From Escherichia phage vB_EcoM_PHB05: a stretch of DNA of 64,000 bases. The stretch lies in sequence record NC_052652.1; one strand, 5' to 3'. Shown piece by piece: positions 817 to 52,863 of this stretch (the first letter of the stretch is position 1; each line of letters opens with the position of its first letter). The translations under genes and the position numbers were made by a program. The notes beneath the pieces are model-generated. The model made no database searches, had not been told where the DNA came from, and saw nothing but the letters and a program-made list of their open reading frames with translations.

Positions 817-818
817 AA

Positions 819-1448: not shown

Positions 1449-1461
1449 GGAGTTACTCTTA

Positions 1462-2442: not shown

Positions 2443-2454
2443 TAAGGAGAACAC

Positions 2455-3006: not shown

Positions 3007-3015
3007 GGGTAATGT

Positions 3016-3357
3016 ATGGAGCTAACAGAAGTATGGGATATCGCTAAAGAGGCGATTATCCCTCTTATTGGTGTAATCTGGGTGGTCTTCAAACAGAAGA
3101 TAGATGATATAGCAAGTGATTTGGATAAAATGGAAGACAAATACCGTGAACTAGAAAAGAAGTTGGTGTTTGTTGAATCCACTTATGCTACCAAAGCAGA
3201 ACTTGCTCAAATGCTTAACCAGATCAACTCTACATTAATGGCAAATAATACTGCCTTAGAACAGAAAATTGAAAAAATAATGGATTTAAAAAATGCTCCT
3301 GTTCAATTAATGCTAGAGGAGATTACGAAGCGCACACAAAGTAAGGACAAAAATTAA
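3016..3357 (+). CDS. Hypothetical small protein with N-terminal hydrophobic helix and coiled coil, 113 aa
   Basis: IIPLIGVIWVVF hydrophobic segment then charged helical region; ATG overlaps next gene start (TAATG at 3357). Confidence 0.35.
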   Translation: MELTEVWDIAKEAIIPLIGVIWVVFKQKIDDIASDLDKMEDKYRELEKKLVFVESTYATKAELAQMLNQINSTLMANNTALEQKIEKIMDLKNAPVQLMLEEITKRTQSKDKN

Positions 3358-5771: not shown

Positions 5772-5774
5772 TTA

Positions 5775-5796
5775 AAAGGGGCGAAAGCCCCTTTAT
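5775..5796 (+). terminator. Rho-independent terminator hairpin (GGGGCGAAAGCCCC, T-run)
   Basis: GC stem with GAAA-type loop followed by TTTAT directly after the stop of the 804-aa gene. Confidence 0.6.
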
Positions 5797-5811
5797 AAAA
5801 GGAGTAGTAAA

Positions 5812-7782: not shown

Positions 7783-7785
7783 TCA

Positions 7786-7807
7786 AAGCCCCTTCGGGGG
7801 CTTATTA
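7786..7807 (+). terminator. Rho-independent terminator hairpin (AAAGCCCC TTCG GGGGCTT)
   Basis: UUCG-type tetraloop hairpin plus T-rich tail after the stop at 7782. Confidence 0.6.
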
Positions 7808-7821
7808 TTTAAGGAGATTAA

Positions 7822-27304: not shown

Positions 27305-27537
27305 TACACATTCTCCTCTTTTACCAATTCCATCGTTGAACTATCAAAACCATCTTTAGAAGAATAGGTATAGACAGAACGTAGTTCTCGCAGGACAGTA
27401 AACACATTAGGATCATCTAACCAAGCATCCTGGAGGAGAACATAACGATCTTCATTGTCGTACTGGACAGCGATCATAGAACCAGACAGTTTGTAAATTT
27501 TAATATTCATAATATATTTCTCCTTAAAGTAGACCAC
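27304..27537 (-). CDS. Hypothetical small protein, 77 aa
   Basis: Track ORF. Confidence 0.3.
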   Translation of the reverse strand: MVYFKEKYIMNIKIYKLSGSMIAVQYDNEDRYVLLQDAWLDDPNVFTVLRELRSVYTYSSKDGFDSSTMELVKEENV

Positions 27538-28627
27538 GTTTAACAGTTTGAATCATACCATCTTCAAGAGATTGCACTTCTTGAATGTAATCAATACGAG
27601 CAGCACGGGCTTCAGTGTTGATCCGATTAGTTTCTTCCAACATTTTAACTAAGTTTTCTTGATCGCGACGTAATGTTTCAATATCCAATACTTGACGATT
27701 AGCAAGTTGCGTAGCTTCAATTTGGTTTTGTGCAGCCAGATCACTACCCATTGCAATAGCAGCATTAAACTCATTCAGTACATTGTTCTGTGTATCGGCT
27801 GCTTTCTTCTGGCGTAGACTTTCAATATACATAGAAAAGTTTGCAGAGTAAGCAGGAATAACATTATTCACAATATTACGGGCTGATCGCATCAAACTTG
27901 CAGATACTTTCTGCATACTTTGTACACGTGGCCCCATCTGAACACACAGTAAACGCAAGGCTTTCAGGTCTGCAATACGAATTTCAAGCAGATCCATAGT
28001 ATCACGAGTACGTTGACGCTCTTCTACTTCATTTTCAGGTAGTGTATTAAGGCGAACTTCTTCTTTTTCATAAGTAGCTGTTAGAAGCTCTATATCCCTG
28101 TTTAAGCTAAGAGCATATTTTGCAATAGCCTCTTCTAAACGTTGCAGATATCGTAAAGAATCTTCTTCTTTTTTCAAGTCTGTTTGGAGTGTCTTTACCA
28201 AACCTTCAATACGATTATTGATGGTGTCAAATTCTCCAAACAAATCTTCTTTCATACCTAATACTTTCTTAACTAACTTACCTAAGCCTTTAGATTGTTT
28301 AATAGAGTTAGGATCAAGTTGCTTTGCTTGCTTAATAAGTGCAGTTAAACGTTCACTCATTTCATCTCCCTGAGATGAACGCTGGTGTTTAAGCACTTCA
28401 GCATTAAGGTTACGAAGAGTAAGTCCTGCATCAGCACCAACTTGTTCAATCTCTTCACGAGACATTGGAGGCAGCATTTGTACAGGTCGTGCAACAGCAG
28501 GGGCATATACAGGGCTTGCATCCATAGCACTTGGAGCAAACAAAGACTTACTTTTTTCTGTTGTTGCCGTGAATACACTCATTTCAGACGGTTTGCTTTT
28601 TACGGCACTGATAAAAGGACTGGACAT
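27524..28627 (-). CDS. telA: TelA-like toxic-anion-resistance family protein (coiled-coil), 367 aa
   Basis: Length, predicted all-helical coiled-coil architecture with E/R/L-rich heptads and position next to TerD/TerC genes match TelA/KlaA family; assignment by resemblance, not verified. Confidence 0.5.
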   Translation of the reverse strand: MSSPFISAVKSKPSEMSVFTATTEKSKSLFAPSAMDASPVYAPAVARPVQMLPPMSREEIEQVGADAGLTLRNLNAEVLKHQRSSQGDEMSERLTALIKQAKQLDPNSIKQSKGLGKLVKKVLGMKEDLFGEFDTINNRIEGLVKTLQTDLKKEEDSLRYLQRLEEAIAKYALSLNRDIELLTATYEKEEVRLNTLPENEVEERQRTRDTMDLLEIRIADLKALRLLCVQMGPRVQSMQKVSASLMRSARNIVNNVIPAYSANFSMYIESLRQKKAADTQNNVLNEFNAAIAMGSDLAAQNQIEATQLANRQVLDIETLRRDQENLVKMLEETNRINTEARAARIDYIQEVQSLEDGMIQTVKRGLL

Positions 28628-28695
28628 TCAATTTCCTCCATATTCTTTAGTAGATGGTGATACCTCTGTACCACCATCATAACACAAATTAAGTA

Positions 28696-29547
28696 TTAAA
28701 CAAACATATCTAAATAATTTGTAGTAATAAATGCTCCATCTGCTTCCAGATTAACATAACCAGTAGCATTAGTGGTTAAGAAATCCAGATCGAAGGACTC
28801 TTTAACACCCCGTACCTCAACACGAGAGATATCGAATACAGGTAGTGTAACAGCCTCTTCGTGCAATACCGTACCTTTGTAGGTTGCCTTAATGATAAAC
28901 TTGATATTACCCGTTCCCGCATCATACAAAACACTTTCAAACCCTTTGAGAGTATACTTATCACCAGAAGTGAAGTGCAAAGTTGCTTTGTTTACAGTAC
29001 GTTTTTTACGAGGAGTTCCTTTCACACGTTTATGATCACTACGTTTTTTGTATTTAGGAGTGAATACAAACGATACACTCTCAAGAAAGGTATCAACATC
29101 AAGGATTTCAATATCCTCTGTTGCAGCAAATTTTGAAGTCGTTGCATCAAAATGCTTTCCCCTGCGATCATACATAAAGATATCAAACCGATCTTCTAAA
29201 TCAAACAAATTATGTATCTTAATTTCAGAATGCTTGCACATTGCAGCAACCTTAAACTCTTCAAAACGTGGGTGTTCTACAAGCTCTTCAAGTTTTACAC
29301 CAAAGACAGTATATTGTTTCGAAGTTTTTTCTGGCGTTGGCATTACAGAAGCATAATCACCGATTGCGCTTTTAAAGCAAAATTGTTCTTGACCTGTATT
29401 TTTACCAACGAATTTACAGTATTCGTCATCGTGCATACTTTCTTTGGTAGTACCAACAAACTCAAAACCATCCTTATTCTTCTCAAGAATTTCTTGATTA
29501 AAGATCCAACCTTCCAGGCGATACACTTTACCAACTTCTAGTTTCAT
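28696..29547 (-). CDS. Hypothetical protein, 283 aa
   Basis: Track ORF between TelA-like and lipoprotein genes; basic KR-rich linker; no motif recognised. Confidence 0.4.
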   Translation of the reverse strand: MKLEVGKVYRLEGWIFNQEILEKNKDGFEFVGTTKESMHDDEYCKFVGKNTGQEQFCFKSAIGDYASVMPTPEKTSKQYTVFGVKLEELVEHPRFEEFKVAAMCKHSEIKIHNLFDLEDRFDIFMYDRRGKHFDATTSKFAATEDIEILDVDTFLESVSFVFTPKYKKRSDHKRVKGTPRKKRTVNKATLHFTSGDKYTLKGFESVLYDAGTGNIKFIIKATYKGTVLHEEAVTLPVFDISRVEVRGVKESFDLDFLTTNATGYVNLEADGAFITTNYLDMFV

Positions 29548-29582
29548 CTGTTCCTCCTTCTTATTTAATCTGTATTAAATTA

Positions 29583-30188
29583 TTAACGGCGACGTGAGCT
29601 ACTAAAACTACGTTTCGACGAAGAATAACTTTTCGAAGACTTACTATAAGAGCTAATAGGGCTTGAGTAAGACTTACGAGCAGAGTAATCACTATTCACT
29701 TTTGTTGTTGATGGGCGTGAATACGTTTGTACACTTTGCTGCTTAATTGTGTTTTGTTTAGTTGTTGTATATGTATTCCCTTGTTTATCATAAAAACTAT
29801 GCTTTTGTGTTGTATATGATTTACTGTTAGTTGTAGGAGCAGCGTTGTTATTAATAATTGTTGTATTGCTACCGCCATCTCTATAACCACCACCGCCACT
29901 ATTACCACTCAACATATGACCAAGAAGCATACCTGTAGCAAATTCACCTACACCAGAAGAACCACTACCGCCTCCTTGCACAACAACTGTTGAAGGCTGT
30001 GCAGGTGCTGCTTGAACAACTTGAGGTGCAGGTTGATTTACATATTGTTCATCTACCATCTGATTTGGTGTTTGTTGGTAACGTTGGTTTTGTACATTTT
30101 CAGAATCATCACAACCTACCAGCAATGCACTGCCTAAAACAACTGCAACAATAAAAGATTTAATGTTTTTCATTTGTAACCCTCTCAT
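29583..30188 (-). CDS. Lipoprotein with glycine-zipper segment and S/Y/Q/N-rich low-complexity tail, 201 aa
   Basis: Signal peptide plus lipobox (ALLVGC); GMLLGHMLSG glycine zipper; extreme S/Y/T/K-rich C-terminus. Confidence 0.55.
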   Translation of the reverse strand: MRGLQMKNIKSFIVAVVLGSALLVGCDDSENVQNQRYQQTPNQMVDEQYVNQPAPQVVQAAPAQPSTVVVQGGGSGSSGVGEFATGMLLGHMLSGNSGGGGYRDGGSNTTIINNNAAPTTNSKSYTTQKHSFYDKQGNTYTTTKQNTIKQQSVQTYSRPSTTKVNSDYSARKSYSSPISSYSKSSKSYSSSKRSFSSSRRR

Positions 30189-30366
30189 TTAAAGTCTCAA
30201 CACAATTTTTAAAATCTCTAGAGAAACAATACATCTGTTCTCCGTTCCTGTTGATAGTAATTGTATGGTTATCAATATATGTTGTCAATATAAAAATCAA
30301 ACAAAATAGCCCTAAAGCAAAACAAATATTTTCAAACAGAATCCAAAGAACACGTAAAACCACCAT
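30160..30366 (-). CDS. Small membrane protein, 68 aa
   Basis: Single hydrophobic helix (ICFALGLFCLIFILTTYI). Confidence 0.3.
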   Translation of the reverse strand: MVVLRVLWILFENICFALGLFCLIFILTTYIDNHTITINRNGEQMYCFSRDFKNCVETLNERVTNEKH

Positions 30367-30382
30367 CAGATCACCTCAACAA

Positions 30383-30398
30383 AGCCCCCGAAGGGGCT
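30383..30398 (-). terminator. Terminator-like hairpin (AGCCCC CGAA GGGGCT)
   Basis: GC stem with tetraloop between the TerC-like gene and downstream genes. Confidence 0.4.
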
Positions 30399-30405
30399 TA
30401 ATGAA

Positions 30406-31383
30406 TTAAGCAACAGCCTGGTCTTCTTTTTCAGGGAAGATTAAACTTGCAATAACACCCAGCCCCAGAGTACCTAACACAATATACATACTGATCGTCG
30501 GATCAATGTGTGCTGGCAGGAAACTCACTTTTGCGTGCAGAGTTTCTGCAAATGGGTGATACATCAGTTTTACACCCACAAATACCAGGACTACGATAAC
30601 TGCTTTCTCCAGATGAACCAAATATTTCAGTGCAACACTAAGGACAAAGAACAGAGCACGTAGACCTAAAATTGCACACAGCATTGAAGAAAATACAAGC
30701 AGAGGTTCTTGTGTCACTGCAATTACTGCTGGAACAGAATCTACTGCAAAGATTACGTCAACCATTTCCATTACAAACACACAAACCAATGCAGGAGTTG
30801 CTACACGAACACCATTTTTGATTGTGAAGAACTTCTCACCATCCATCTGATCAGATACAGGGAACAGCTTACGAACAATGCGAGTAGCCCAGTGTTTAGA
30901 GTAATCAACTTCTGCGTCATTATCTCCAGCGAATACCATTTTAGCTGCACAGAAAAGGATGATCGCACCGAAGAAGATATTAACATACCAGCCCAAACTC
31001 AACAAGTAAGTGCCTACTGCTACAAACACACCTCGGAAGACAATCGCACCTGCAATACCCCAAAGTAGAATCTTGTGCTGCAAGTGTGTGCTTTTAATAC
31101 CAAAACTTGCGAATACTGCCACAAATACTACTAAGTTATCTACAGAAAGAGATTTCTCCAACACATACCCACTCAAGAACAAGCTCGCAAAATCAGCACC
31201 GTGTTGGAAGTATACAAAACCATAGTAGGCTAATGATACCCCAATCCAGAAAATTGACCAGCCAATTGCAGATTTAAATGAAATTTCTTTGTTTTCTCTG
31301 TGTCCAAAGAAATCAATACAAATCGACAAGACTAAAATACCCACTAAAACAACCACATCAATAATTGGGAAACCCAGTTGCAT
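30406..31383 (-). CDS. terC: TerC-family integral membrane protein, 325 aa
   Basis: Multiple TM helices and hallmark motif LEKSLSVDNLVVFVAVFASFG of the TerC/Alx family. Confidence 0.7.
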   Translation of the reverse strand: MQLGFPIIDVVVLVGILVLSICIDFFGHRENKEISFKSAIGWSIFWIGVSLAYYGFVYFQHGADFASLFLSGYVLEKSLSVDNLVVFVAVFASFGIKSTHLQHKILLWGIAGAIVFRGVFVAVGTYLLSLGWYVNIFFGAIILFCAAKMVFAGDNDAEVDYSKHWATRIVRKLFPVSDQMDGEKFFTIKNGVRVATPALVCVFVMEMVDVIFAVDSVPAVIAVTQEPLLVFSSMLCAILGLRALFFVLSVALKYLVHLEKAVIVVLVFVGVKLMYHPFAETLHAKVSFLPAHIDPTISMYIVLGTLGLGVIASLIFPEKEDQAVA

Positions 31384-31401
31384 TCTTTTCTCCTCTTTAA
31401 T

Positions 31402-31420
31402 GCGGAGGACAATCCTCCGC
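31402..31420 (-). terminator. Hairpin (GCGGAGGA CAAT CCTCCGC) upstream of the TerC-like gene, possible terminator of the preceding transcript
   Basis: 7-bp stem in the 77-nt intergenic gap. Confidence 0.35.
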
Positions 31421-31460
31421 TCTATGTCGTATACTATAAACTGTTTTTAAAGAAAGTCAA

Positions 31461-31709
31461 CTAGTTCAGTTCTGTAATTTTAAGTTTATCTTCTTTGTTA
31501 ATGATAGGGAAAGCTACAGCATCACCTACATCATCAATAAAGCAAACAGCAAGACCACCTTCCACTTTGCTAACCTGACCATTAAAGGCGTGATACGGGG
31601 CAGGAACAATATCTCCATCTTCAAGGAGAATAGCCTCATAAACCTTACCAACAGTACAATCACGAGTGTTTATAAATTTTTCAAGCACTTCAACATTTAC
31701 TTTACGCAT
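31461..31709 (-). CDS. Hypothetical small protein, 82 aa
   Basis: Track ORF. Confidence 0.35.
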   Translation of the reverse strand: MRKVNVEVLEKFINTRDCTVGKVYEAILLEDGDIVPAPYHAFNGQVSKVEGGLAVCFIDDVGDAVAFPIINKEDKLKITELN

Positions 31710-31724
31710 ATAAAAAATCCTCTC

Positions 31725-31931
31725 TTATTTGTTAGATTGAAAGATACCACGAAGTACCGCAAGAATGAACGTCACACAGACTACACTCCAAAACGTTACA
31801 GGAACATGATGCCAGTCTAAACCGATAATGTCAATCATATAGTTGTATGCTAAAAGCAGTAGCCAACTAGGGATTAACACAATCAAGAACACAACAATAA
31901 AACAACCTAATACTGCTAAAACACCTGCCAT
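31725..31931 (-). CDS. Small membrane protein, 68 aa
   Basis: Two hydrophobic helices (LAVLGCFIVVFLIVLIPSWLLLLAY; VTFWSVVCVTFILAVL). Confidence 0.35.
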   Translation of the reverse strand: MAGVLAVLGCFIVVFLIVLIPSWLLLLAYNYMIDIIGLDWHHVPVTFWSVVCVTFILAVLRGIFQSNK

Positions 31932-31940
31932 ACTTTCTCC

Positions 31941-32657
31941 TTATTTCAGTTTGTAAACAATTACATTTAAACCTTTGTTCACTAGAGTTTCTTCGATCAT
32001 AAGTTTTACAATATTCCAAGAACCTCCAGCCAAACCACAACCAAGCATTGGTAAACCTACAATTTTACCGCCTGAAGATACAACATCGTCTCCCATACTA
32101 TCTAACGCATTGTAGATAGCTTCATAATTCAGGTCACGCTTACCTTCCTCACGACGACTATAACCATATTGTCCATATAAATTATAAATTGTCAAATTGT
32201 TTTCTGTATACTTAGTAAACGTACCTAATTTTTTATAATCACCACGTTTAGTGGCACAATCTGCTTTAAACGCACCAGGCCACTTGCTTTTAATTTTTGG
32301 TGCAATACCACTACCCATAGTGCAAAAACAGTTACAGCAGTGTGCTATAGCGTCTATATCGCCTCTCTCGGCTGCTGCTAAAAGATCACCGTATACCTCA
32401 ATGATACCTGCTGGATAACTTGTTACAATTTCATCTTCCCAATACATTTTCTCTACACCACCGATCAGTGCAAAGTTTTGTGTAATGCGATCATCAATAT
32501 AGTTAAGACCTGAAACATACACAGCATATTCATCCTGTGCTGTAATGCCTTGTACACGAATTCTTAAGACACCATCTTTATCTGTTGCTACGCGCCCAAA
32601 ATCTTTTTCTGTAATATTGGTGATAGGATCTCCGAAAGTCGTCACTTTATTAGACAT
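31941..32657 (-). CDS. Macro-domain protein (Poa1p-like ADP-ribose-derivative processing enzyme), 238 aa from internal start
   Basis: Motif IDAIAHCCNCFCTMGSGIA matches the H-x-CN...MG-GIA signature of Poa1-type macro domains; start set at the Met with RBS AAGGGG, giving an 8-nt overlap with the upstream gene. Confidence 0.5.
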   Translation of the reverse strand: MSNKVTTFGDPITNITEKDFGRVATDKDGVLRIRVQGITAQDEYAVYVSGLNYIDDRITQNFALIGGVEKMYWEDEIVTSYPAGIIEVYGDLLAAAERGDIDAIAHCCNCFCTMGSGIAPKIKSKWPGAFKADCATKRGDYKKLGTFTKYTENNLTIYNLYGQYGYSRREEGKRDLNYEAIYNALDSMGDDVVSSGGKIVGLPMLGCGLAGGSWNIVKLMIEETLVNKGLNVIVYKLK

Positions 32658-33507
32658 AATAATCCCCTTTAACATTAGATTTGTTGATAATGTTGCTTTC
32701 AAAAAATTGACGCAGGAAATCAAAGTTCTCTTTGTATTTTTCAATATTATTGTAACCTTCTGCAAGGCAACCAAAGAACAGTTGTTCTACATAATACAAA
32801 GGAAGTTGTGAAAGTGCAATTTTAAAATCAACTTCGCTTTGACTCATTAGATACTTAATAGGACGAACCAAACATTTAGCATCAGTTTCTTGCTTAATCA
32901 TTTTAATAAAAGCTGCCAAGTTATTGATATAGTTGAAGTTAAGCGCAGCTTCGGTGTTGGCTTCTGTACCTTCATACTTTGCAAAGTACAGGAAAAACGT
33001 ATCGTTTTCAACACCTTCTTTGTCTAAAATTTCAATAAGTTTTTCTTCGTGTGTTCCTGTAATATTAACATCATCAATGAAAATCAGAGTTTTATTACCC
33101 CAGAAATCACGATTGATAGAGAAAGTGTCACCATCAATCAAAGCCTTACGATCTTCTTTGCTAAGAAATCCATAATCATTGATATAACTCACTTTACGAT
33201 GAACGATATCCCACTCTACTGCTTTACCTCCTTTGATAGAGATTAGGTAGTTGAGGTGATCTACAAAATGTTCAGATAACACTGTAGCTGCATTTTTCAC
33301 ATAGTTGTATGGAGATGGAATAACAACAAAACTTTCATTTACTAGTCGTTCTTCATATTTAGAAAAGAAACTTTCAGCCAGAATGCGTCCCATTCTTTTT
33401 GCTGCCTGGTTACTACCAAACTTTAGTTTGGAATAATCTGCAATGTTAAATTTTGCTTCCTTCAGGTTAGTAAAAGTATTAGCAAAATGTTGAATTTGAT
33501 TACGCAT
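32650..33507 (-). CDS. Phosphoribosyltransferase (type I PRTase fold) family protein, 285 aa
   Basis: PRPP-binding motif TLIFIDDVNITGTHEEKL (hydrophobic strand, two acidic residues, TG-T). Confidence 0.55.
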   Translation of the reverse strand: MRNQIQHFANTFTNLKEAKFNIADYSKLKFGSNQAAKRMGRILAESFFSKYEERLVNESFVVIPSPYNYVKNAATVLSEHFVDHLNYLISIKGGKAVEWDIVHRKVSYINDYGFLSKEDRKALIDGDTFSINRDFWGNKTLIFIDDVNITGTHEEKLIEILDKEGVENDTFFLYFAKYEGTEANTEAALNFNYINNLAAFIKMIKQETDAKCLVRPIKYLMSQSEVDFKIALSQLPLYYVEQLFFGCLAEGYNNIEKYKENFDFLRQFFESNIINKSNVKGDYYV

Positions 33508-34156
33508 TAATAAGTTCCTCTTTTTTAAGTTTAGCCAACAAATCTTCTGGATTAATAATATGACAGAACTTCATCCCTATGTCAACAGCTTTTCCATCAT
33601 AGATCAAACTATCTCCAACGTGTAAAATCTCCTCTGGTGCGAGATCAAACGTTACCATTTCATCAAAAGAGAGTTTAAAAAACCTAGGATCTGGTTTACA
33701 CAAGCAAAACTCATCAGAAAAATGCATAAAGTCAAATGGTAATTTTGTTAAGCCAGAATATACAGCTAAGAAACTACCTGGTACAAAATTAGTATTGCTC
33801 TTAATACTCAAAGAATAGGTTGAACTTAGCTCTTCCAACTTCTTGCAAAGCTCATGGTTCAATATTGGAGGATGTTTTATAAACATTGCTAAACAGTCTC
33901 TTTTTAATCCATCCACTTTATCAAGATCAATGTTCAAACGAGTAGAAAGTGTTTCCCAAGCATTCCTAGACGTTCCACAAATGCCTTTTTCTGCTTTTAA
34001 ATCCAGGAGAGTTTTTACCTCTTTATATACGGTAGCTGCTTCTGCCTCAGAACAAGAGGTATACTCGGCAATAACCTTGTTGCGTTCTTCTGCATACAAA
34101 GGATTAGCAGTAATAAGAGTATTCCATACATCAAAAGAAATATGCTTAACAGTCAT
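33500..34156 (-). CDS. HAD-superfamily hydrolase-like protein (phosphatase/nucleotidase-like), 218 aa from internal start
   Basis: N-terminal ISFDVWNTLI (motif I-like, second Asp replaced) and C-terminal HVGDSLIYDGKAVDIG (motif IV-like); start at the Met with RBS GGAGG. Confidence 0.45.
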   Translation of the reverse strand: MTVKHISFDVWNTLITANPLYAEERNKVIAEYTSCSEAEAATVYKEVKTLLDLKAEKGICGTSRNAWETLSTRLNIDLDKVDGLKRDCLAMFIKHPPILNHELCKKLEELSSTYSLSIKSNTNFVPGSFLAVYSGLTKLPFDFMHFSDEFCLCKPDPRFFKLSFDEMVTFDLAPEEILHVGDSLIYDGKAVDIGMKFCHIINPEDLLAKLKKEELINA

Positions 34157-34325
34157 TTTTAATCCTCCGTCCAAAAGAATATCATCTGCTTAATTTTATT
34201 AATCTCTTGACGTAGTAACTTTCCAGCATGTGCTTGATCTTTAAGATTTGCAGCAAGAGTTTCAAGCTCCGTTAGTTTTTCCTGGATAGCTTTATATTCA
34301 TCATCTGTAAGCATTTTCTTCCCCT

Positions 34326-34529: not shown

Positions 34530-34536
34530 ATAAATA

Positions 34537-34560
34537 AAGGAGGCTTTCGCCTCCTTTTAT
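34537..34560. terminator. Terminator hairpin flanked by A- and T-runs (AAAGGAGGC TTTC GCCTCCTTTT)
   Basis: Perfect 7-bp stem, symmetric A/T flanks. Confidence 0.55.
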
Positions 34561-34563
34561 CAC

Positions 34564-35724
34564 TTAGTAAGAACGACCACCAAACACATACTCTGTGTAG
34601 TTTTTACGTTCTTTGTTTTTAATAACAACTTCAATGTTGTTACCTTTATCATCGGTGAACATAAAGTGATAACCGTCACCACCCATTGTACGAATGTGTT
34701 TTTCATCATACGTTAGCAAGATACGGTCTACACCCCAGTAGTAGTCACCTTCTTCATCTTTATCTTCTACGGTAACGATCCCTTCCATTTCAGGAAGATG
34801 CTCTTCTCCTGACTTATGATCTACAGCTACAACATAACGATTACCGCTAAACAAACCTTGTGCTGTCATACCGTCAATATCGGTATCTGACGAAACATCC
34901 CCTGTACGATCTACACCGTTAACTTTCAGAAGTTTAACTTCTTTTGCAGCATAGCGGTGTTCAGTAATACTGATACCCATTAATGCAAGTGCATCAGAGA
35001 ATTTGTCATTAGGGTAACGGTTAAGTTCTTCTACTAATGACTGAACAATATCAAAGTTCAAATCCACGGAGAGATTATAAAGCGTTTCAAAATCTGGTAA
35101 GAAGGCTTTGTTCTCCAGATTTTTAGCCAGATAATCATCCATAGTAGCTTTAGGTAGTTTCTTATAGCTAAAACTGTAGAAAATACGGCTAGGACGATTA
35201 CGCAAAAATTCTGATACATAACCATCATTTTTAGTCAATACAAACAGCTTGTCATAACCACCAACACCATCCAGCAGGGTAAGCAGACCATCTTGTGCAT
35301 CTTTTTCAGCATACAGTTTATCAAATTCATCGATCATAATCATCACAGGTTGTGTGATTTTAGACATAAAATTGATAAAGCCTTCACCATTAAAAGCACT
35401 ACCGATAGAAATAGTAGGAATACCCATTTCACGAAGAGCAGAAGACAGCATTTTAGCTTGCAAAGTTTTACCGCTACCTTTCGTACCCTCAAGGAGAACA
35501 CCTGTGTTTTTACCTTTGCGGCTAAGGAACGTCTTGATAATACGTTCTGATTTATCATCAGTATCACCGTATGTTACTGAAGGGACTTCCATATCGTTTT
35601 TAGGATACAGGAAGAACTCGCCACTTTGAGTAACACCTACACCAAAAGTTCCTGCTGGAATTTCTTCAATATCTGTACCAGACTTCTGACGCAGGAAGAT
35701 TTGATTGCCGAATACTGTAAACAT
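34564..35724 (-). CDS. P-loop AAA+-type ATPase, copy A (RFC/clamp-loader-like motif layout), 386 aa
   Basis: Walker A GTKGSGKT, Walker B MIMIDEFDK, sensor-1-like VLTKNDG, arginine motif NRPSRIFY; paralogue of 50489..51616. Confidence 0.6.
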   Translation of the reverse strand: MFTVFGNQIFLRQKSGTDIEEIPAGTFGVGVTQSGEFFLYPKNDMEVPSVTYGDTDDKSERIIKTFLSRKGKNTGVLLEGTKGSGKTLQAKMLSSALREMGIPTISIGSAFNGEGFINFMSKITQPVMIMIDEFDKLYAEKDAQDGLLTLLDGVGGYDKLFVLTKNDGYVSEFLRNRPSRIFYSFSYKKLPKATMDDYLAKNLENKAFLPDFETLYNLSVDLNFDIVQSLVEELNRYPNDKFSDALALMGISITEHRYAAKEVKLLKVNGVDRTGDVSSDTDIDGMTAQGLFSGNRYVVAVDHKSGEEHLPEMEGIVTVEDKDEEGDYYWGVDRILLTYDEKHIRTMGGDGYHFMFTDDKGNNIEVVIKNKERKNYTEYVFGGRSY

Positions 35725-35744: not shown

Positions 35745-36215
35745 TTAGTCAGATTCCCAAATGTTGTCTTTCTTAACCCACATTCGTTGATTATCTGAAC
35801 CTCTATAACGTTTCGTTGTTGGTTGATTCATATCATACTTACCATCTATCACTATGTCAACCAGTTTTTTAATTTTCTCTGGAATTTCTTCAAAAAGATA
35901 TCCTGTATATAAGACAATATCTTTTTTGTTTCCAAAACAATCTCTTACCTTCTCAAGAACATACTCTACAGTGTCAATGTTCTCTTTGTCAAGAGGTTCA
36001 CCACCTAAAACTGTTAATCCTTTAATGAAAGGTCGAGATAAATCTTCCAAGATAAGATCTAATGTTTCAGCAGTGAACTCTTGTCCGTAGTTATACGACC
36101 AGGCTTTCTGGTTAAAGCAGCCACGGCAACCGTGGCTACAACCGCTCACCCACAAAGAGCATCTTACACCGTCACCGTTGAGCATGTCAACAGGTTCATA
36201 TCCGGCGTAATTCAA
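35745..36215 (-). CDS. nrdG: Anaerobic ribonucleotide reductase activating protein (radical SAM)
   Basis: Cys cluster CSLWVSGCSHGCRGC near N-terminus; 156 aa; translationally coupled downstream of nrdD. Confidence 0.8.
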   Translation of the reverse strand: MNYAGYEPVDMLNGDGVRCSLWVSGCSHGCRGCFNQKAWSYNYGQEFTAETLDLILEDLSRPFIKGLTVLGGEPLDKENIDTVEYVLEKVRDCFGNKKDIVLYTGYLFEEIPEKIKKLVDIVIDGKYDMNQPTTKRYRGSDNQRMWVKKDNIWESD

Positions 36216-38011
36216 AAATGTTTCTCCCTTTCTAGTACCTCTTGCATTTTACCTTTATTATAAGGGCGAGAGTTAGGAGCAGAAAGGTATCCTGACACTC
36301 TTCTGATCACAGATATGGATTCTTCTTCATGATTACCGCAACTTGGACACTCGAAGCCTTTAGCCGTTGCTTTAAATTCACCATGAAAACCACATTTGAA
36401 ACACTGATCTACAGGTTGGTTCACGCCAAAATAAGGAATTTTATTGTAGGCATAATCTACAAGAGTTTCCAGTGCTTGCAAGTTATTTTTAAGGTTTGGT
36501 GTTTCTACATAACCTATGTTCCCACCATTGCTAATTTGTGCAAAACCTTCCTCATAATCCCACTTTTGGAACGGGGTAGTGTGCATCCATACAGGTTGAT
36601 GGAAAGAGTTTGTCAAGTAGTCACGATCAATAGAGCCAGGATAGCGATCATTTAATGCTTTGGCAAATTTATAGCACAAGGATTCTGCTGGTGTTCCATA
36701 CAAACTAAAAGCTAAACCAGAACGTTCTTTAAATGTGCAACAGATATCCTTCATATATTGAAGGATGTTTTTACCCATTGCTTTTGGATTGGTGTTATTT
36801 GGGTATAAAATCTCCATAGCTTCTGCTAAACCTACATAACCGATACTAATAGAGGCATAACCACCTTCAAATAGTTTACCAATCTCTTCATTAGCTTCTA
36901 GTCGAGCTAAAGCCCCTTCCATAAACAATGTAGGGTTTTGAGATGCTTTGGTATGTCTAATACGGTTAACACGTAGCATATGCGCCTTATACGCCATCTC
37001 CATATGTTGTTCCAACAGTTCAGTAAATAAGATGCCCTTTTCACGGGACTCTGCTGCAATGATAGGTAAATTTAAAGAAACTACGCCTAAGTTGAAACGA
37101 CCATCATATTTTTCACCTTGCTCTGTTGCGTAGTATGACAAGAAACTACGGCAACCCATGCTTGTGACGCGACCATCTGAAGATCCTGTAACTTCTTTGT
37201 TTAAAGGTACAGAAATAAAATCAGGATAAATGCGTTCAGCACAACACTCCATTGCCAGTTGCTTCAAATCATAGTTTGGATCGCCAGCTTTCATGTTAAC
37301 ACCATCTTCCAAGAAGAAGATAACTTTAGGGAACACAGGAGTTACCCTATCTTTTCCTAAGCCTTGTTTGTGCACCATTAGGTAGTTTTTAGCGATCATT
37401 CTACCAAAAGCAGAGGTATCCAAGCCTAAACTAATTGTTATAAAAGGTGACTGACCATTTACACTCATTAGGGTGTTCACCTGGTAGATTAAAGTTTGCA
37501 TTGCATCATAAACCTGTTTATCTACCATACGCATAGCAATATCATAATCACCAACGTCAGCATAGATTTTATTAAAACTTGCTTTAACGTATTGACTAAG
37601 CCCAGTATCAATATGTGCACAAGTTTGTCCACCATATTGGCTAGAAGCTACTGCTTGAATAATTTGAGTTAGAACAGTAGTTGCTACACCGATAGATTTT
37701 GGTTTTTCAATATGTGCATTACCAATACGGAAACCGTTCTCAAGCATATCTTGGTAATTTACCAGGCAACAATTAGTTAAAGGTGAGAGTAAATAATCTA
37801 AATCGTGAATGTGACCATACCCGCTTTTATGCCATTCTGCTAGATCTTCCGGTAAAATATGGGTCATTGCCATGTGCTTGCTCAGGATACCTGCTAGTAA
37901 GTCTCGGTGAGTATTAACAATCATTGCAGGTTTGTTTGCATTTTCACGAGTAAATTCTTCGGATGTTTGTTCGAGGAATCCGATTACATCCTCATATAGT
38001 TTTTGGGTCAT
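36212..38011 (-). CDS. nrdD: Anaerobic ribonucleoside-triphosphate reductase (class III RNR)
   Basis: C-terminal Zn ribbon CFKCG...CPSCG and glycyl-radical motif RVSGYL; 599 aa. Confidence 0.85.
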   Translation of the reverse strand: MTQKLYEDVIGFLEQTSEEFTRENANKPAMIVNTHRDLLAGILSKHMAMTHILPEDLAEWHKSGYGHIHDLDYLLSPLTNCCLVNYQDMLENGFRIGNAHIEKPKSIGVATTVLTQIIQAVASSQYGGQTCAHIDTGLSQYVKASFNKIYADVGDYDIAMRMVDKQVYDAMQTLIYQVNTLMSVNGQSPFITISLGLDTSAFGRMIAKNYLMVHKQGLGKDRVTPVFPKVIFFLEDGVNMKAGDPNYDLKQLAMECCAERIYPDFISVPLNKEVTGSSDGRVTSMGCRSFLSYYATEQGEKYDGRFNLGVVSLNLPIIAAESREKGILFTELLEQHMEMAYKAHMLRVNRIRHTKASQNPTLFMEGALARLEANEEIGKLFEGGYASISIGYVGLAEAMEILYPNNTNPKAMGKNILQYMKDICCTFKERSGLAFSLYGTPAESLCYKFAKALNDRYPGSIDRDYLTNSFHQPVWMHTTPFQKWDYEEGFAQISNGGNIGYVETPNLKNNLQALETLVDYAYNKIPYFGVNQPVDQCFKCGFHGEFKATAKGFECPSCGNHEEESISVIRRVSGYLSAPNSRPYNKGKMQEVLEREKHF

Positions 38012-50488: not shown

Positions 50489-51616
50489 ATGAAATACACG
50501 ATTTATGGTGATATTGTAAGTGTAAATAAAGATATGGGTGTGGAATCTAATTATCTTCCACCTGGATTCTATACTGTTAGTCGTGATCCCCTTGGCAATT
50601 ATTTTTTAAGCCGTGGTAATCTAACAGGTGTACCGGATGTTCTGTATGGTGAAACAGAAAAACGAGCAAATCACGTTATCCGTACATTCCATCGCCGGAG
50701 TGCACAAGGTAAAAATACAGGTTTGCTTCTGACAGGAACTAAGGGCAGTGGTAAAACTATGTTAGCCAAGCTCATTAGTCGTGACCTTGTAGAAGAAGGT
50801 ATTCCAACTATTATGGTTACTCAAGCCTACAGTGATGCTAATTTCATTGAACTTATTAGCAAGATCACCGACAAAGCAGTGATTATTTTTGACGAGTTTG
50901 ATAAAGTATATGAGAAGAAACAAGATCAAGAAGCACTTCTCACTTTGTTAGATGGTACTGGCAGTGGTAATAAACTGTTTATTCTAACTAAAAACAGTGG
51001 CTTTATCTCTGAATTCTTTCTAAATCGTCCTAGTCGTGTGTTTTATAATTTTAATTATGATAAAATCTCACTAGAAACTATGATTGACTATTTAGATAAA
51101 AACCTGGATAACAAAGCACACTTTGATAATTTCCAAAGACTTTGGGATGTAAGTTTAGAGTTGTCCTTTGATGTGATCCAAGGTATAGTAGAAGAACTTA
51201 ATTTCTACCCTGATTTATCCTTTAAAGAATGCATCTCTATGATGGGCGTTTCTTTGGGTGGTGGTAATAAATGGGATATCAGTAGCGTTATTATTAATGG
51301 AAAACTTCAGAAAGTTAGCTGGGTATCTAGTTGGCATAACTTTACACCTGCAATCTTTTTAGGTGGCTCGTGCACACTAGACGTGTACTTGTCATCTCCA
51401 AGTGATGCAGATTCTAAAGAAGCCCTTGCTAATAGCTCTTACGTGGTTTTTGATGATGAAGGCGATGCTCGAATTCCGTTGAATGCGACAAAAATGAAAG
51501 CAGACCTTATCACAGGCGGTAAAATCGTTGTGTTTAGTGATGATCCAGAAGATTCTTTCCGTATTGTTCTGGAACCAACTATCACCAATGGTGCAACTTT
51601 GGCAAGTGTGTTTTAA
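50489..51616 (+). CDS. P-loop AAA+-type ATPase, copy B (paralogue of 34564..35724), 375 aa
   Basis: Walker A GTKGSGKT, Walker B VIIFDEFDK, ILTKNSG, NRPSRVFY; N-terminal 80 aa and ATPase core align with copy A, C-terminal third diverges. Confidence 0.6.
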   Translation: MKYTIYGDIVSVNKDMGVESNYLPPGFYTVSRDPLGNYFLSRGNLTGVPDVLYGETEKRANHVIRTFHRRSAQGKNTGLLLTGTKGSGKTMLAKLISRDLVEEGIPTIMVTQAYSDANFIELISKITDKAVIIFDEFDKVYEKKQDQEALLTLLDGTGSGNKLFILTKNSGFISEFFLNRPSRVFYNFNYDKISLETMIDYLDKNLDNKAHFDNFQRLWDVSLELSFDVIQGIVEELNFYPDLSFKECISMMGVSLGGGNKWDISSVIINGKLQKVSWVSSWHNFTPAIFLGGSCTLDVYLSSPSDADSKEALANSSYVVFDDEGDARIPLNATKMKADLITGGKIVVFSDDPEDSFRIVLEPTITNGATLASVF

Positions 51617-51632
51617 GTAAGCCAGCAAATAA

Positions 51633-51656
51633 AAACCCGCTTCGGCGGGTTTTCTT
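51633..51656 (+). terminator. Rho-independent terminator (AAACCCGC TTCG GCGGGTTTTCTTG)
   Basis: 8-bp stem, UUCG loop, T-run. Confidence 0.65.
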
Positions 51657-51690: not shown

Positions 51691-52863
51691 ATGGTAGCAC
51701 TAAAATCATGGGAACAATATAAAGAAGAATTAATACCCCTTGCTAAAAATCACAATATTCAAATCTTGGGTTATGTTGGTGAATGGAAAGGGAACAAGAC
51801 TAAACTTAAGCTATCTTGCCCTAAACATGGAGAGTGGAACACCACGAACATTAATGATTTTAAGAAGGGACGTGGTTGTCCTATCTGTTCTGGTAAGAAG
51901 CCGTTAACATGGGAAACAGAATTGCCGATCTTGGAAGAGATAGCACAGAAGAGGGGGTATCAGGTGTTAGGGTACGTGGGAGAATGGAAAGGGAATAAAA
52001 CAAAACTTGATTTGTTGTGTCATTGTGGTAATAAATGGGATACTACAAGTATTAACAATTTTAAACGTGGTAGCGGTTGTCCACAATGTAAGAGGGAGAG
52101 ACAAACAATGTCCGACGATCAACATATTGCAGATTTCTTTTCTACAGGGGAATTTAAGGAAGGCACTATCTTCACCAATACAGGGAAACGTAACAAGCGT
52201 GATGCAGTATGGATGGTTGAGTGTCCTGTTTGCTCCCATGATGAATATGTTCAAGCAGGTGTTTGTGATGGTAAATTTTACTCTGCAGGACATAACCTTA
52301 AACAAGGGTATATTCCGTGTCGTTGTGGGAACTATCAGTATACAGAAGACCAGATCACCTATAGGGTAAAAAAGGAAGTAGAAGGGAAAGGGTATGTCTG
52401 GGTAGATTGGATTACCAAACCCTCTTCTATAGGTAAGTTTAAATATCTTTGTCTTGTGCATGGTGAGCAGATAGGGAGTGCTCGTAATTTATTAAGCCTC
52501 GGTCAAGGTTGTCCACAGTGTGCTGGTCATAATCAACAGCAATTATATATTAATATTGTTAAAGATAATGGTATTATAGTTGCTCTTAAGTTTGGTATAT
52601 CTAAAGATAGCGATAGACGATTAAACGGTCAAAATAGCCGTAATCTGTTTTTTATGGAGCGTATTTGTTTATATGATTTTAGCACAGTGAAACAATGTAG
52701 GGCTGCTGAAAGAGCTATAAAGAAAAAATTAAAAACTGGTATTTTAACGGCAAGAGAGTTGAAAGATGGTTATACAGAAACAGTAAGTGTTTCTGATTTG
52801 GAAAATCTTCAAAAAATTATTACACAATATGGTGGCAAATTAGTATACAGTAAGGAGGTGTAA
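51691..52863 (+). CDS. Tandem zinc-ribbon-repeat protein with C-terminal GIY-YIG/T5orf172-like domain (putative nuclease), 390 aa
   Basis: Repeated modules GYVGEWKGNKTKL-L-C-HGEW-TT-IN-FK-G-GCP-C (four copies, paired cysteines); C-terminal IVALKFGISKDSDRRL resembles the T5orf172 signature. Confidence 0.4.
   Translation: MVALKSWEQYKEELIPLAKNHNIQILGYVGEWKGNKTKLKLSCPKHGEWNTTNINDFKKGRGCPICSGKKPLTWETELPILEEIAQKRGYQVLGYVGEWKGNKTKLDLLCHCGNKWDTTSINNFKRGSGCPQCKRERQTMSDDQHIADFFSTGEFKEGTIFTNTGKRNKRDAVWMVECPVCSHDEYVQAGVCDGKFYSAGHNLKQGYIPCRCGNYQYTEDQITYRVKKEVEGKGYVWVDWITKPSSIGKFKYLCLVHGEQIGSARNLLSLGQGCPQCAGHNQQQLYINIVKDNGIIVALKFGISKDSDRRLNGQNSRNLFFMERICLYDFSTVKQCRAAERAIKKKLKTGILTARELKDGYTETVSVSDLENLQKIITQYGGKLVYSKEV

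What the first reader, a model, noticed from the sequence alone, without database searches (positions are those of the whole stretch)
34564..35724. Two paralogous AAA+-like ATPases on opposite strands (34564..35724 and 50489..51616)
The two proteins share an 80-aa N-terminal domain and an ATPase core (GTKGSGKT, DEFDK, TKN-G, NRPSR-FY) but diverge in the C-terminal third. The motif order resembles clamp-loader/RFC-type AAA+ modules, yet the replication module here is T7-like, which normally needs no clamp loader. Divergent paralogues 15 kb apart may be subunits of a hetero-oligomeric machine or functionally diverged remodelers.
Basis: seen in the sequence. Interest (0 to 1): 0.55.

Follow-up and report, generated by a model that had tools for sequence, protein, structure and literature searches.

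The report
Two paralogous phage AAA ATPases
A phi92-like E. coli phage carries two diverged copies of a very widespread but uncharacterised phage AAA ATPase that looks like a protein-remodelling ring motor, not a DNA clamp loader; the genes are real but already annotated and fairly ordinary.

Summary
ORFs 34564..35724(-) (386 aa, "A") and 50489..51616(+) (375 aa, "B") are clear paralogues: 47% identity over 254 aa, E=1e-81, and every quoted motif is present. The window is a phi92-like coliphage (Justusliebigvirus, 99% identical to PD06), where both genes are already annotated "ATPase".

Both belong to PHROG 2376, a phage family with at least 3,300 50%-identity clusters. They share three domains: a small N-terminal beta domain, an AAA core with lid, and a variable C-terminal beta domain. 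Sequence hallmarks and structural neighbours place them in the classic AAA clade (Bcs1, Rpt/Mpa, FtsH, Cdc48), not the RFC/clamp-loader clade. The hallmarks are PF00004 above its cut-off, an RPGR second region of homology, an LLTLLDG motif, an aromatic pore-loop residue and no invariant sensor-2 arginine.

The sister genus has only the B-type gene at the same position, so A is an extra, old paralogue. The copies differ most in the N- and C-terminal domains, and each has its own terminator-like hairpin.

The function is inferred, not shown. They are most likely ring-forming remodelling ATPases with different clients. A heteromer and partnership with the phage's orphan HslV-like peptidase both remain untested. 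Interest is low to moderate.

The parts
34564..35724 (-). ATPase A gene (386 aa; PD06 gp056 orthologue), stop codon included
   Evidence: ORF list. PHROG 2376 E=3.5e-104 over the full length. PF00004 29.4 bits against a cut-off of 21.2. AlphaFold model pLDDT 86.5.
35590..35724 (-). A: N-terminal five-strand beta domain (residues 1-45)
   Evidence: Secondary structure of the model. Conserved LP.G.Y.V motif.
34969..35508 (-). A: AAA alpha/beta core and four-helix lid (about residues 73-252). Walker A K86, Walker B D132/E133, pore-loop F111, sensor-1 N166, arginines R177/R180.
   Evidence: Invariant columns of alignment A2, model, Foldseek PDB neighbours.
34567..34968 (-). A: C-terminal beta-rich domain (about residues 253-386) with an acidic insert and the tail ...GGRSY
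   Evidence: Model. Orthologue alignment A3. hhalign against the B-type C-terminus E=9e-5. Tail survey.
34536..34557 (-). Terminator-like hairpin ending 7 nt after the stop codon of A
   Evidence: Consensus scan: 9-bp stem with 5 GC pairs, followed by a T run. Pattern match only.
35832..35860 (-). Sigma-70-like site (TTGACA-17-TATGAT, 11/12) inside the 3' part of nrdG, about 108 nt upstream of the start of A
   Evidence: Consensus scan. The number of sites in the region does not exceed the shuffles, so this is only a lead.
50489..51616 (+). ATPase B gene (375 aa; Phi92_gp221 / PD06 gp024 orthologue), stop codon included
50489..50623 (+). B: N-terminal five-strand beta domain (residues 1-45)
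   Evidence: Model secondary structure.
50714..51253 (+). B: AAA alpha/beta core and lid (residues 76-255). Walker A K89, Walker B D135/E136, pore-loop Y114, sensor-1 N169, arginines R180/R183.
   Evidence: Invariant columns of A1, column frequencies, model.
51254..51613 (+). B: C-terminal beta-rich domain (residues 256-375) with the flexible tail ...ASVF
   Evidence: Model, pLDDT below 50 for residues 366-375. Alignment A4. Tail survey.
51632..51653 (+). Terminator-like hairpin starting 16 nt after the stop codon of B
   Evidence: Consensus scan: AAAACCCGCTTCGGCGGGTTTT followed by a T-rich tail. Pattern match only.

Best explanation
A and B are old paralogues of one phage-specific family of classic-clade AAA ATPases (PHROG 2376).

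Inferred mechanism: each protein assembles into a ring, probably a homo-hexamer. ATP bound by the Walker A lysine and Walker B Asp-Glu of one subunit is sensed by the two invariant arginines of the neighbouring subunit (RP[GS]R). Hydrolysis cycles then move a conserved aromatic residue at the pore-loop-1 position (F111 in A, Y114 in B) that lines the central channel. This lets the ring grip and remodel, or partly unfold, a client protein or protein complex.

The small N-terminal beta domain, and the C-terminal beta domain with its flexible aromatic-ended tail, would select clients or partners. The paralogues keep the motor (58% identity) but have diverged in these two domains (23% and 13% identity). 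Each gene is followed by its own terminator-like hairpin. B lies in the divergent arm of small genes. A lies behind nrdD-nrdG in the DNA/nucleotide-metabolism arm. The most likely arrangement is therefore two homo-oligomeric remodelers with different clients or timing.

Shown here: paralogy, family membership, the AAA fold, intact catalytic motifs, the domain layout and the gene contexts. Inferred only: ring formation, protein (rather than DNA) clients, and separate roles.
For: - Paralogy: E=1e-81.
- Family: both match PHROG 2376 over the full length. A profile of the family finds 3,327 50%-identity cluster representatives at E<=1e-30, nearly all 350-400 aa.
- Classic AAA, sequence: PF00004 is above its gathering score for both. 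A profile search of the PDB hits p97/Cdc48 D2, VAT, AFG2, NVL, Rix7 and Bcs1, and aligns LLTLLDG with LLTLMDG and RPGR with RPGR.
- Catalytic residues: G/K/T of Walker A, D-E of Walker B, sensor-1 T..N and both arginines are invariant in 58/58 sequences.
- Pore loop: F, Y or W in 53/58 sequences, followed by x-G/D.
- Models: pLDDT 88.5 and 86.5, with the same three-domain layout.
- Divergence is concentrated in the end domains.
- History: the A clade has bootstrap 100 and the B clade 98. They join with a third 368-aa lineage at 53%.
- Gene position: Phapecoctavirus has a single gene, syntenic with B.
- Transcription signals: terminator-like hairpins follow both genes.
- General knowledge: characterised classic-clade AAA proteins remodel proteins.
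Against: - No experiment on any family member was found.
- The pore-loop-1 segment is about 6 residues shorter, and the pore-loop-2 segment about 12 residues shorter, than in p97.
- The models show no short helix between beta2 and alpha2, which is the structural hallmark of the classic clade. A threading mechanism is therefore uncertain.
- Gene contexts in other phages are often replication modules. In a crAss-like phage the order is primase, resolvase, ATPase, exonuclease. In Staphylococcus phage CF9 the gene follows helicase, primase, RNase H and RecJ. These contexts would also fit a DNA-directed role.
- Oligomeric state, ATPase activity and clients are all untested.
Confidence: 0.55

Rival explanations
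1. Replication accessory factor acting on DNA-bound machines. This would be a clamp loader (RFC-like), or a DnaC-like helicase loader or initiator-type switch.
For: - Weak HMM hits to clamp-loader PHROGs (E=1e-8 for B) and DnaC-like loader PHROGs (E=1e-6).
- Weak hits to Hda, DnaC-like PRK08116 and IstB in NCBIfam, all far below their cut-offs.
- The topology is minimal, without clade-specific insertions.
- Family members sit in replication blocks of a crAss-like phage and of Staphylococcus phage CF9.
- PMC7886860 lists an AAA+ ATPase among the four conserved replication-block genes of crAss-like phages.
- A lies in the same-strand arm as PolA, the primase-helicase and the ribonucleotide reductases.
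Against: - There is no SRC motif. The family consensus is RPGR.
- There is no invariant sensor-2 arginine in the lid.
- The domain after the lid is beta-rich, not a helical collar.
- No helical insert of the initiator type lies between alpha2 and beta3.
- No sliding clamp is annotated in the parts of the PD06 genome that were inspected.
- The replisome is of the T7 type, with a gp4-like primase-helicase and PolA, and such helicases load themselves (general knowledge).
- RFC and DnaC are absent from the top 50 Foldseek hits for A.
- B sits among small genes, away from the replication genes.
Confidence: 0.2
2. A and B are subunits of one hetero-oligomeric ring, like Pex1/Pex6 or the Rpt subunits.
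For: - All 8 listed records with a close A homologue (at least 75% identity) have a second match, so A co-occurs with B there. The same is seen on three IMG/VR contigs.
- The motor module is well conserved between the two (58% identity), and both keep all catalytic residues.
Against: - The B type occurs alone in Phapecoctavirus. The only family gene looked at in a third 154-kb lineage also sits in a B-like early arm. Most family members appear to be single-copy.
- The two genes lie 15 kb apart on opposite strands, and each is followed by a terminator-like hairpin.
- Neither paralogue shows the catalytic degeneration common in obligate hetero-hexamers.
Confidence: 0.12
3. One or both ATPases are the unfoldase partner of the phage's own orphan HslV/20S-like peptidase. 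Together they would form a phage-encoded ATP-dependent protease. The aromatic C-terminal tail would be the docking element, as HbYX/GQYL tails or the HslU C-terminus are in known systems.
For: - PD06 encodes a 'peptidase HslV family' protein (gp186) with PF00227 at 24.4 bits, just above the 22.4-bit cut-off. No HslU is annotated.
- The HslV-like gene is found in 105 Escherichia phage records. That is the same count as for the ATPase, and the two lists overlap in the records shown.
- PMC7823757 reports a Salmonella jumbo phage with HslV-like genes and no HslU. I did not check whether that phage carries this ATPase family.
- The structural neighbours of A include the proteasomal ATPases Rpt and Mpa, with alignments of 290-369 columns that extend beyond the AAA module.
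- 114 of 198 family members end in F, Y or W after a low-confidence tail.
Against: - The co-occurrence seen is essentially one lineage, so it can be explained by shared ancestry.
- The ATPase family is abundant in Lactococcus, Lactobacillus, Bacillus, Staphylococcus and crAss-like phages, none of which had an HslV-like hit.
- Aeromonas phage 4L372D has the HslV-like pair, but the ATPase at its B-like position is of the AAA_5/MoxR type.
- The genes are not adjacent. In PD06 the peptidase is about 95-110 kb from either ATPase.
- crAss-like members lack the C-terminal domain and tail altogether.
Confidence: 0.08
4. The family works with NAD/ADP-ribose or tRNA-repair functions, for example as a counter-defence accessory, because it often sits next to such genes.
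For: - In 80 IMG/VR loci the commonest neighbours are an NMNAT-Nudix protein (26 loci), a small protein cluster that includes the window's Macro-domain protein (19) and NAMPT (17). NAMPT is typically directly upstream on the same strand.
- A tRNA gene lies within 3 kb in 26 of 73 loci.
- A gene annotated as tRNA-splicing ligase lies directly upstream in Cronobacter phage 009.
- tRNA-Met lies directly downstream in Lactococcus phage phiL47.
- In the window a Macro-domain gene lies 1.8 kb downstream of A.
Against: - Many of those loci come from related environmental phages, so the counts are not independent.
- In PD06 the genes annotated NAMPT and PRPP synthetase are tens of kb from both ATPases.
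- There is no tRNA gene in the window.
- Accessory genes of large phages cluster anyway.
- No biochemical logic links a classic AAA ring to these enzymes.
Confidence: 0.05

Closest known systems
Classic AAA family (Pfam PF00004), with Bcs1 as the nearest solved structure
   Different: Pore loops 1 and 2 are shorter than in p97. No short helix is predicted before pore loop 1. There is no Bcs1-specific domain: full-length Bcs1 aligns over only ~197 residues. The N-terminal 45-aa beta domain and the C-terminal beta domain have no detectable relatives.
Proteasomal ATPases (PAN, Rpt1-6, Mpa/ARC)
   Same: A small beta domain lies N-terminal to a classic AAA module, and a flexible C-terminal tail ends in an aromatic or hydrophobic residue. 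Foldseek alignments to Rpt and Mpa chains span 290-369 columns. The phage genome also carries a proteasome/HslV-like peptidase.
   Different: There is no coiled coil. An extra ~110-130-aa beta domain lies between the lid and the tail. The tail is not a canonical HbYX motif: A ends in ...RSY and B in ...SVF. No partnership with the peptidase has been shown, and it is not conserved across the family.
RFC / clamp-loader clade AAA+
   Different: The family consensus is RPGR, not SRC. There is no sensor-2 arginine and no helical collar domain. No clamp is annotated in the genome. Conserved aromatic pore-loop and LLTLLDG motifs are present.
PHROG 2376 'ATPase', including the AAA+ ATPase in the replication block of crAss-like phages
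   Same: Both window proteins match the PHROG over its full length. The ATPase of crAss-like phage cr130_1 aligns to the family profile with E=2e-32 over the N domain, AAA core and lid.
   Different: The crAss-like member (259 aa) lacks the C-terminal domain. I did not verify whether it equals the 'ATP_43b' gene of PMC7886860. No member has a known function.

Membership tests
Classic AAA ATPases (PF00004) | Pfam model matched above its gathering score | tested here: met
   A scores 29.4 bits and B 38.9 bits against a cut-off of 21.2. Nearly all homologues carry a precomputed PF00004 hit.
Classic AAA ATPases (PF00004) | Walker A GxxGxGKT, Walker B hhhhDE and sensor-1 Asn | tested here: met
   These residues are invariant in 58/58 sequences. 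In B they are G83/G86/G88/K89, D135/E136 and T167/N169. The equivalent residues are present in A.
Classic AAA ATPases (PF00004) | Second region of homology with two arginines (RPGR-type) and the LLxxMDG-type motif | tested here: met
   R180 and R183 are invariant, and the consensus is NRPGRIFY. LTLLDG is invariant or nearly so. Both align to the same motifs of p97 D2.
Classic AAA ATPases (PF00004) | Short helix inserted between beta2 and alpha2, ahead of pore loop 1 (structural hallmark of the clade) | tested here: not met
   The models show only a 6-residue loop between strand 107-110 and helix 117-125 in B, and the same in A. The family is ~6 residues shorter than p97 at this point. This rests on predicted models, not on solved structures.
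Classic AAA ATPases (PF00004) | Aromatic pore-loop-1 residue | tested here: met
   F, Y or W in 53/58 sequences at B position 114, followed by x-G/D. A has F111 and B has Y114.
Classic AAA ATPases (PF00004) | Ring oligomer with ATPase activity | not testable with these tools
   This needs biochemistry or EM. No multimer prediction was available.
RFC / clamp-loader clade | SRC arginine-finger motif | tested here: not met
   A and B read RPSR[IV] and the family consensus is RPGR. There is no conserved Cys.
RFC / clamp-loader clade | Sensor-2 arginine in the lid | tested here: not met
   No invariant Arg or Lys occurs between B residues 193 and 255. An Arg at position 239 is present in 78% of sequences. 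A has it, and B has Phe there.
RFC / clamp-loader clade | C-terminal helical collar domain | tested here: not met
   In both models the domain after the lid is beta-rich.
RFC / clamp-loader clade | A sliding clamp encoded with it | tested here: inconclusive
   No clamp is annotated in PD06 positions 8239-149506. Positions 1-8238 were not inspected, and no profile search for clamps was run.
Initiator / helicase-loader clade (DnaA, DnaC, Cdc6) | Helical insert (ISM) between alpha2 and beta3 | tested here: not met
   Only 4 residues separate helix 117-125 from strand 130-134 in the B model. NCBIfam hits to Hda and DnaC-like models score 16-30 bits against cut-offs of ~190.
HslU/ClpX and other pre-sensor-1 hairpin clades | Beta-hairpin before sensor 1 | tested here: not met
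PHROG 2376 (phage 'ATPase') | Full-length match to the family profile | tested here: met
   A: E=3.5e-104, profile positions 2-359 of 363. B: E=1e-107, positions 1-357 of 363.
Bcs1 | Bcs1-specific domain N-terminal to the AAA module | tested here: not met
   Full-length mouse Bcs1 (6ukp_A, 366 residues) aligns over only 197 residues, which is the AAA part. The phage N domain is a 45-aa beta unit with no sequence relatives in the PDB. Transmembrane segments were not predicted.

The most novel reading that the evidence does not exclude
The two AAA ATPases are the missing unfoldase partners of the orphan HslV/20S-like peptidase encoded elsewhere in phi92-like genomes. Together they would form a phage-built, proteasome-like ATP-dependent protease. 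The conserved aromatic C-terminal tails would dock on the peptidase, and the two paralogues would supply two substrate specificities, for example early host-protein clearance versus turnover during replication.
Probability: 0.08. Interest if true: 0.75.

Novelty: new member of a known kind. Interest (0 to 1): 0.3.

Why it matters
The two genes themselves are already annotated as 'ATPase' in dozens of phi92-like genomes, so the finding as stated is modest. The family behind them is worth more attention.
- It has at least 3,300 clusters at 50% identity.
- It spans coliphages, jumbo phages, phages of lactic acid bacteria, Bacillus and Staphylococcus phages, and crAss-like gut phages.
- One member carries an intein.
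- No member has a known function.

Placing the family in the classic, protein-remodelling AAA clade rather than among clamp or helicase loaders changes which experiments make sense. Substrate trapping is more appropriate than DNA-loading assays. The phi92-like phages offer a natural paired system, with two paralogues that share a motor but differ in their end domains, for finding the clients.

Tried and rejected
- The AlphaFold-database fold library (afdb50) was not available.
- Separate fold searches of the N- and C-terminal domains were not possible. Profile searches of the PDB with the N domain and both C-terminal domain types gave nothing significant.
- NCBIfam gave only sub-threshold generic P-loop hits.
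- Literature searches found no functional study. 'phrog_2376' returned no papers. Searches for phi92 plus ATPase and for phage AAA+ early genes found nothing relevant. The rV5 genome paper does not mention the ATPase.
- I looked for informative domain fusions among long family members. There was only an uncharacterised N-terminal extension and one LAGLIDADG intein.
It found only bacterial contamination.
- I tested whether the HslV-bearing Aeromonas phage 4L372D carries the family at the B-like position. Its ATPase there is of the AAA_5/MoxR type and matches only at the P-loop.
- I tested for a tRNA link in the window. There are no tRNA genes.
- I tested whether the TelA/TerC neighbours of A recur with the family. 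They occur only in phi92-like loci.
- I considered acquisition of A from jumbo phages. NJ trees place A, B and a third lineage together apart from the jumbo-phage clade, but with only 53-71% bootstrap support.
Full report
**The observation**

34564..35724 on the minus strand encodes 386 aa (called A here). 50489..51616 on the plus strand encodes 375 aa (called B). BLASTP between them gives 47% identity over 254 residues, E=1e-81, so they are paralogues beyond doubt. The quoted motifs GTKGSGKT, DEFDK, LTKN.G and NRPSR.FY are present in both.

Identity varies by region:

| Region | Identity A vs B |
|---|---|
| N-terminal beta domain | 23% |
| Linker and first helix | 39% |
| AAA alpha/beta core | 58% |
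| Lid | 46% |
| C-terminal third | 13% |

The C-terminal thirds are probably still homologous. Alignments of A-type and B-type orthologue tails match at E=9e-5 over 113 columns, though at only 59% probability. Both proteins also match the same PHROG profile from end to end.

**Where the window comes from**

The region is 99% identical to Escherichia phage vB_vPM_PD06 and about 98% identical to many other phi92-like myoviruses (Justusliebigvirus, Stephanstirmvirinae). In PD06 the genes are gp056 and gp024 (Phi92_gp221), both annotated 'ATPase'.

- A lies directly behind nrdD-nrdG, in the long minus-strand arm that also holds PolA, a primase-helicase, a large helicase and ribonucleotide reductase genes.
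- B lies in the divergently transcribed arm of mostly small genes. A 145-aa ORF with no Pfam hit precedes it. A 390-aa protein with three CapR domains and a T5orf172 domain follows it.
- Each gene is followed at once by a strong terminator-like hairpin, at 34557-34536 (-) and 51632-51653 (+).
- An 11/12 sigma-70-like site lies about 108 nt upstream of A, inside nrdG. These are pattern matches only.

**What the proteins are**

Both match PHROG 2376 ('ATPase') over the full length, with E=1e-104 and 1e-107. Both pass Pfam's gathering score for the classic AAA family PF00004.

A 58-sequence alignment shows the invariant positions:
- the Walker A glycines, lysine and threonine;
- the Walker B Asp-Glu;
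- a Lys and a Gln just after Walker B;
- LTLLDG;
- the sensor-1 Thr..Asn;
- two arginines in the motif NRP[GS]R.

A profile of this alignment finds p97/Cdc48 D2, VAT, AFG2, NVL, Rix7 and Bcs1 in the PDB. LLTLLDG aligns with LLTLMDG, and RPGR with RPGR.

The position equivalent to pore loop 1 holds F, Y or W in 53 of 58 sequences, followed by x-G/D. No arginine is invariant in the lid, so there is no sensor-2.

AlphaFold models built on these alignments are confident, with pLDDT 88.5 for B and 86.5 for A. Both show the same layout:
- five short strands in residues ~1-45;
- a linker with an invariant Tyr-Gly;
- the AAA alpha/beta domain;
- a four-helix lid;
- a beta-rich C-terminal domain of ~110-130 residues, ending in a low-confidence tail.

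**Clade assignment and its limits**

The evidence favours the classic AAA clade over the clamp-loader clade.
- There is no SRC motif.
- There is no sensor-2 arginine.
- There is no helical collar.
- No clamp is annotated in the inspected parts of the PD06 genome.

Two points cut the other way. The models lack the short helix before pore loop 1 that typifies classic AAA proteins. Both pore-loop segments are also shorter than in p97. The topology is minimal, which explains the weak clamp-loader and DnaC-like profile hits. The models show neither the initiator-type helical insert nor a pre-sensor-1 hairpin.

**The family**

A full HMM scan of 1.84 billion cluster representatives finds 3,327 proteins at E<=1e-30. 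Nearly all are 350-400 aa and match the whole profile. Isolated phages carrying the family include:
- Phapecoctavirus;
- GAP32, BF and Yen9-04-type jumbo phages;
- Agrobacterium phage Atu_ph07;
- Lactococcus 949-like phages;
- Lactobacillus and Bacillus Herelleviridae;
- Staphylococcus Sextaecvirus;
- Acinetobacter, Proteus and Aeromonas phages;
- crAss-like phages.

The cr130_1 crAss-like ATPase is a true member (E=2e-32) but lacks the C-terminal domain. It sits between primase, resolvase and exonuclease genes. A published survey lists an AAA+ ATPase among the four conserved replication-block genes of crAss-like phages (PMC7886860). I did not verify that it is the same gene.

No informative domain fusion was found, and one member carries a LAGLIDADG intein. 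Of 198 full-length members, 114 end in F, Y or W. The ending is often a pattern like Y-x-[YW]-x-D-A-F. A ends in ...GGRSY and B in ...ASVF. This looks like a docking peptide, but its partner is unknown.

**History of the two copies**

In neighbour-joining trees of the N domain plus AAA region, the A clade has bootstrap 100 and the B clade 98. The two group with a third 368-aa lineage, apart from the jumbo-phage clade, with moderate support. That support is 53%, rising to 71% when one more sequence is included.

Phapecoctavirus, the sister genus, has one gene, at the position of B and followed by the same endonuclease. The third lineage's gene also sits just after a divergent switch among small genes. 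Every listed record with a close A homologue also has a second match.

B is therefore the ancestral positional copy. A is an additional old paralogue, kept in phi92-like phages and their Klebsiella relatives.

**Gene neighbourhoods elsewhere**

I examined 80 IMG/VR loci.
- The commonest neighbours are an NMNAT-Nudix fusion (26 loci), a small protein cluster that includes the window's Macro-domain protein (19) and NAMPT (17). NAMPT is typically directly upstream on the same strand. rIIA/rIIB-like and FEN/RNase H-like genes, identified by eye only, also recur.
- A tRNA gene lies within 3 kb in 26 of 73 loci and within 1 kb in 17.
- A gene annotated as tRNA-splicing ligase lies directly upstream in Cronobacter phage 009.
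- tRNA-Met lies directly downstream in Lactococcus phage phiL47.

In the window, A is followed by a HAD-like hydrolase (below the Pfam cut-off), a ComF-like PRTase, a Macro-domain protein, TerC and TelA. The TerC/TelA link is confined to phi92-like loci. The window has no tRNA genes. In PD06 the NAMPT-like and PRPP-synthetase-like genes lie far from both ATPases. Many of the environmental loci are related to each other, so I treat these associations as leads, not evidence of function.

**The HslV-like peptidase**

PD06 encodes, outside the window, a proteasome/HslV-like peptidase (gp186; PF00227 at 24.4 bits, just above the 22.4-bit cut-off). No HslU is annotated. Its homologues occur in the same 105 Escherichia phage records that carry the ATPase. 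They also occur in Vibrio, Aeromonas and Shewanella phages.

One such phage, Aeromonas phage 4L372D, has an AAA_5/MoxR-type ATPase at the B-like position. It is not a member of this family. Most lineages that carry the ATPase show no HslV-like hit. A classic AAA ring with an N-terminal beta domain and an aromatic tail would be a natural partner for such a peptidase. The idea is therefore kept as the most novel reading, but its support is weak.

**Conclusion**

The clamp-loader comparison is not supported.

The best-supported mechanism is a ring-forming classic AAA remodelling motor in two versions. The versions share the engine and differ in the client-binding end domains and in transcription unit. 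That mechanism is inferred from family membership and motif conservation. No experiment on any member was found. The genes are known and annotated. The contribution here is the clade assignment, the domain anatomy, the order of duplication and the size of the family.

Noticed in passing
window 27524..34174 (-): TelA 27524..28627, TerC 30406..31383, Macro 31941..32774, PRTase_3 32650..33507, HAD-like 33500..34174: Directly downstream of ATPase A lies a run of genes typical of bacterial Ter/TelA stress-response neighbourhoods. They are TelA, TerC, a ComF-like phosphoribosyltransferase, a Macro-domain protein annotated 'phosphatase' in PD06, and a HAD-like hydrolase (24.3 bits, below the Pfam cut-off of 26.4). 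What this set does in a lytic coliphage is unexplained.
   Followed up: partly
window 51691..52863 (+): The gene after ATPase B encodes a 390-aa protein with three CapR homology domains (E=3e-43) and a weak T5orf172 domain. It is annotated 'endonuclease'. The same gene follows the single ATPase in Phapecoctavirus, so the pair is conserved.
   Followed up: partly
window 34536..34557 (-) and 51632..51653 (+): Both ATPase genes are followed within 7-16 nt by strong GC-rich hairpins with T runs. This suggests that each ends a transcription unit.
   Followed up: no
window 36212..38011 (-): nrdD is one intact 599-aa ORF here. In PD06 it is annotated as two CDS, and the alignment breaks into two pieces with ~290 extra bases. 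That suggests an insertion (intron or other element) in PD06 that this phage lacks.
   Followed up: no
PD06 NC_052653.1 126454..127598 (outside the window; locus L089 23455..24599): phi92-like and phAPEC8-like phages encode an orphan proteasome/HslV-like peptidase next to a 164-aa protein, with no HslU annotated. In Aeromonas phage 4L372D the two adjacent genes are both annotated 'peptidase HslV family', but only one of them had a Pfam Proteasome hit.
   Followed up: partly
PD06 NC_052653.1 98686..101384 (outside the window; locus L088 45687..48385): Adjacent genes are annotated nicotinamide phosphoribosyltransferase (577 aa) and ribose-phosphate pyrophosphokinase. From memory, this pair resembles a published phage NAD+-reconstitution pathway. 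It was not checked here.
   Followed up: no
IMG/VR loci L027, L051, L053, L057, L066, L074, L075 and others, positions ~3700-9000: There is a recurrent same-strand gene order: NMNAT-Nudix, a small protein clustering with the window's Macro-domain protein, NAMPT, then the family ATPase. It occurs in many environmental phage contigs, often after genes that by eye look like rIIA/rIIB. tRNA arrays lie within 1-3 kb in about a third of the loci.
   Followed up: partly
protein P0328 (727 aa, family member from the representative library): A LAGLIDADG homing-endonuclease intein interrupts the AAA domain of one family member. This is in line with the report that crAss-like phages carry introns in their AAA ATPase gene (PMC7886860).
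   Followed up: no
Aeromonas phage 4L372D NC_048771.1 35831..36982 (locus L095): At the position that corresponds to ATPase B (second arm after the divergent switch, followed by a large endonuclease), this distant relative has an AAA_5/MoxR-type ATPase instead. This may be a non-orthologous replacement.
   Followed up: partly
C-termini of family members (window 34567..34600 and 51584..51613): 114 of 198 family members end in F, Y or W, and 47 have Asp at the third-last position, often giving ...D-A-F. The tails have low model confidence. This looks like a conserved docking peptide with an unknown partner.
   Followed up: partly
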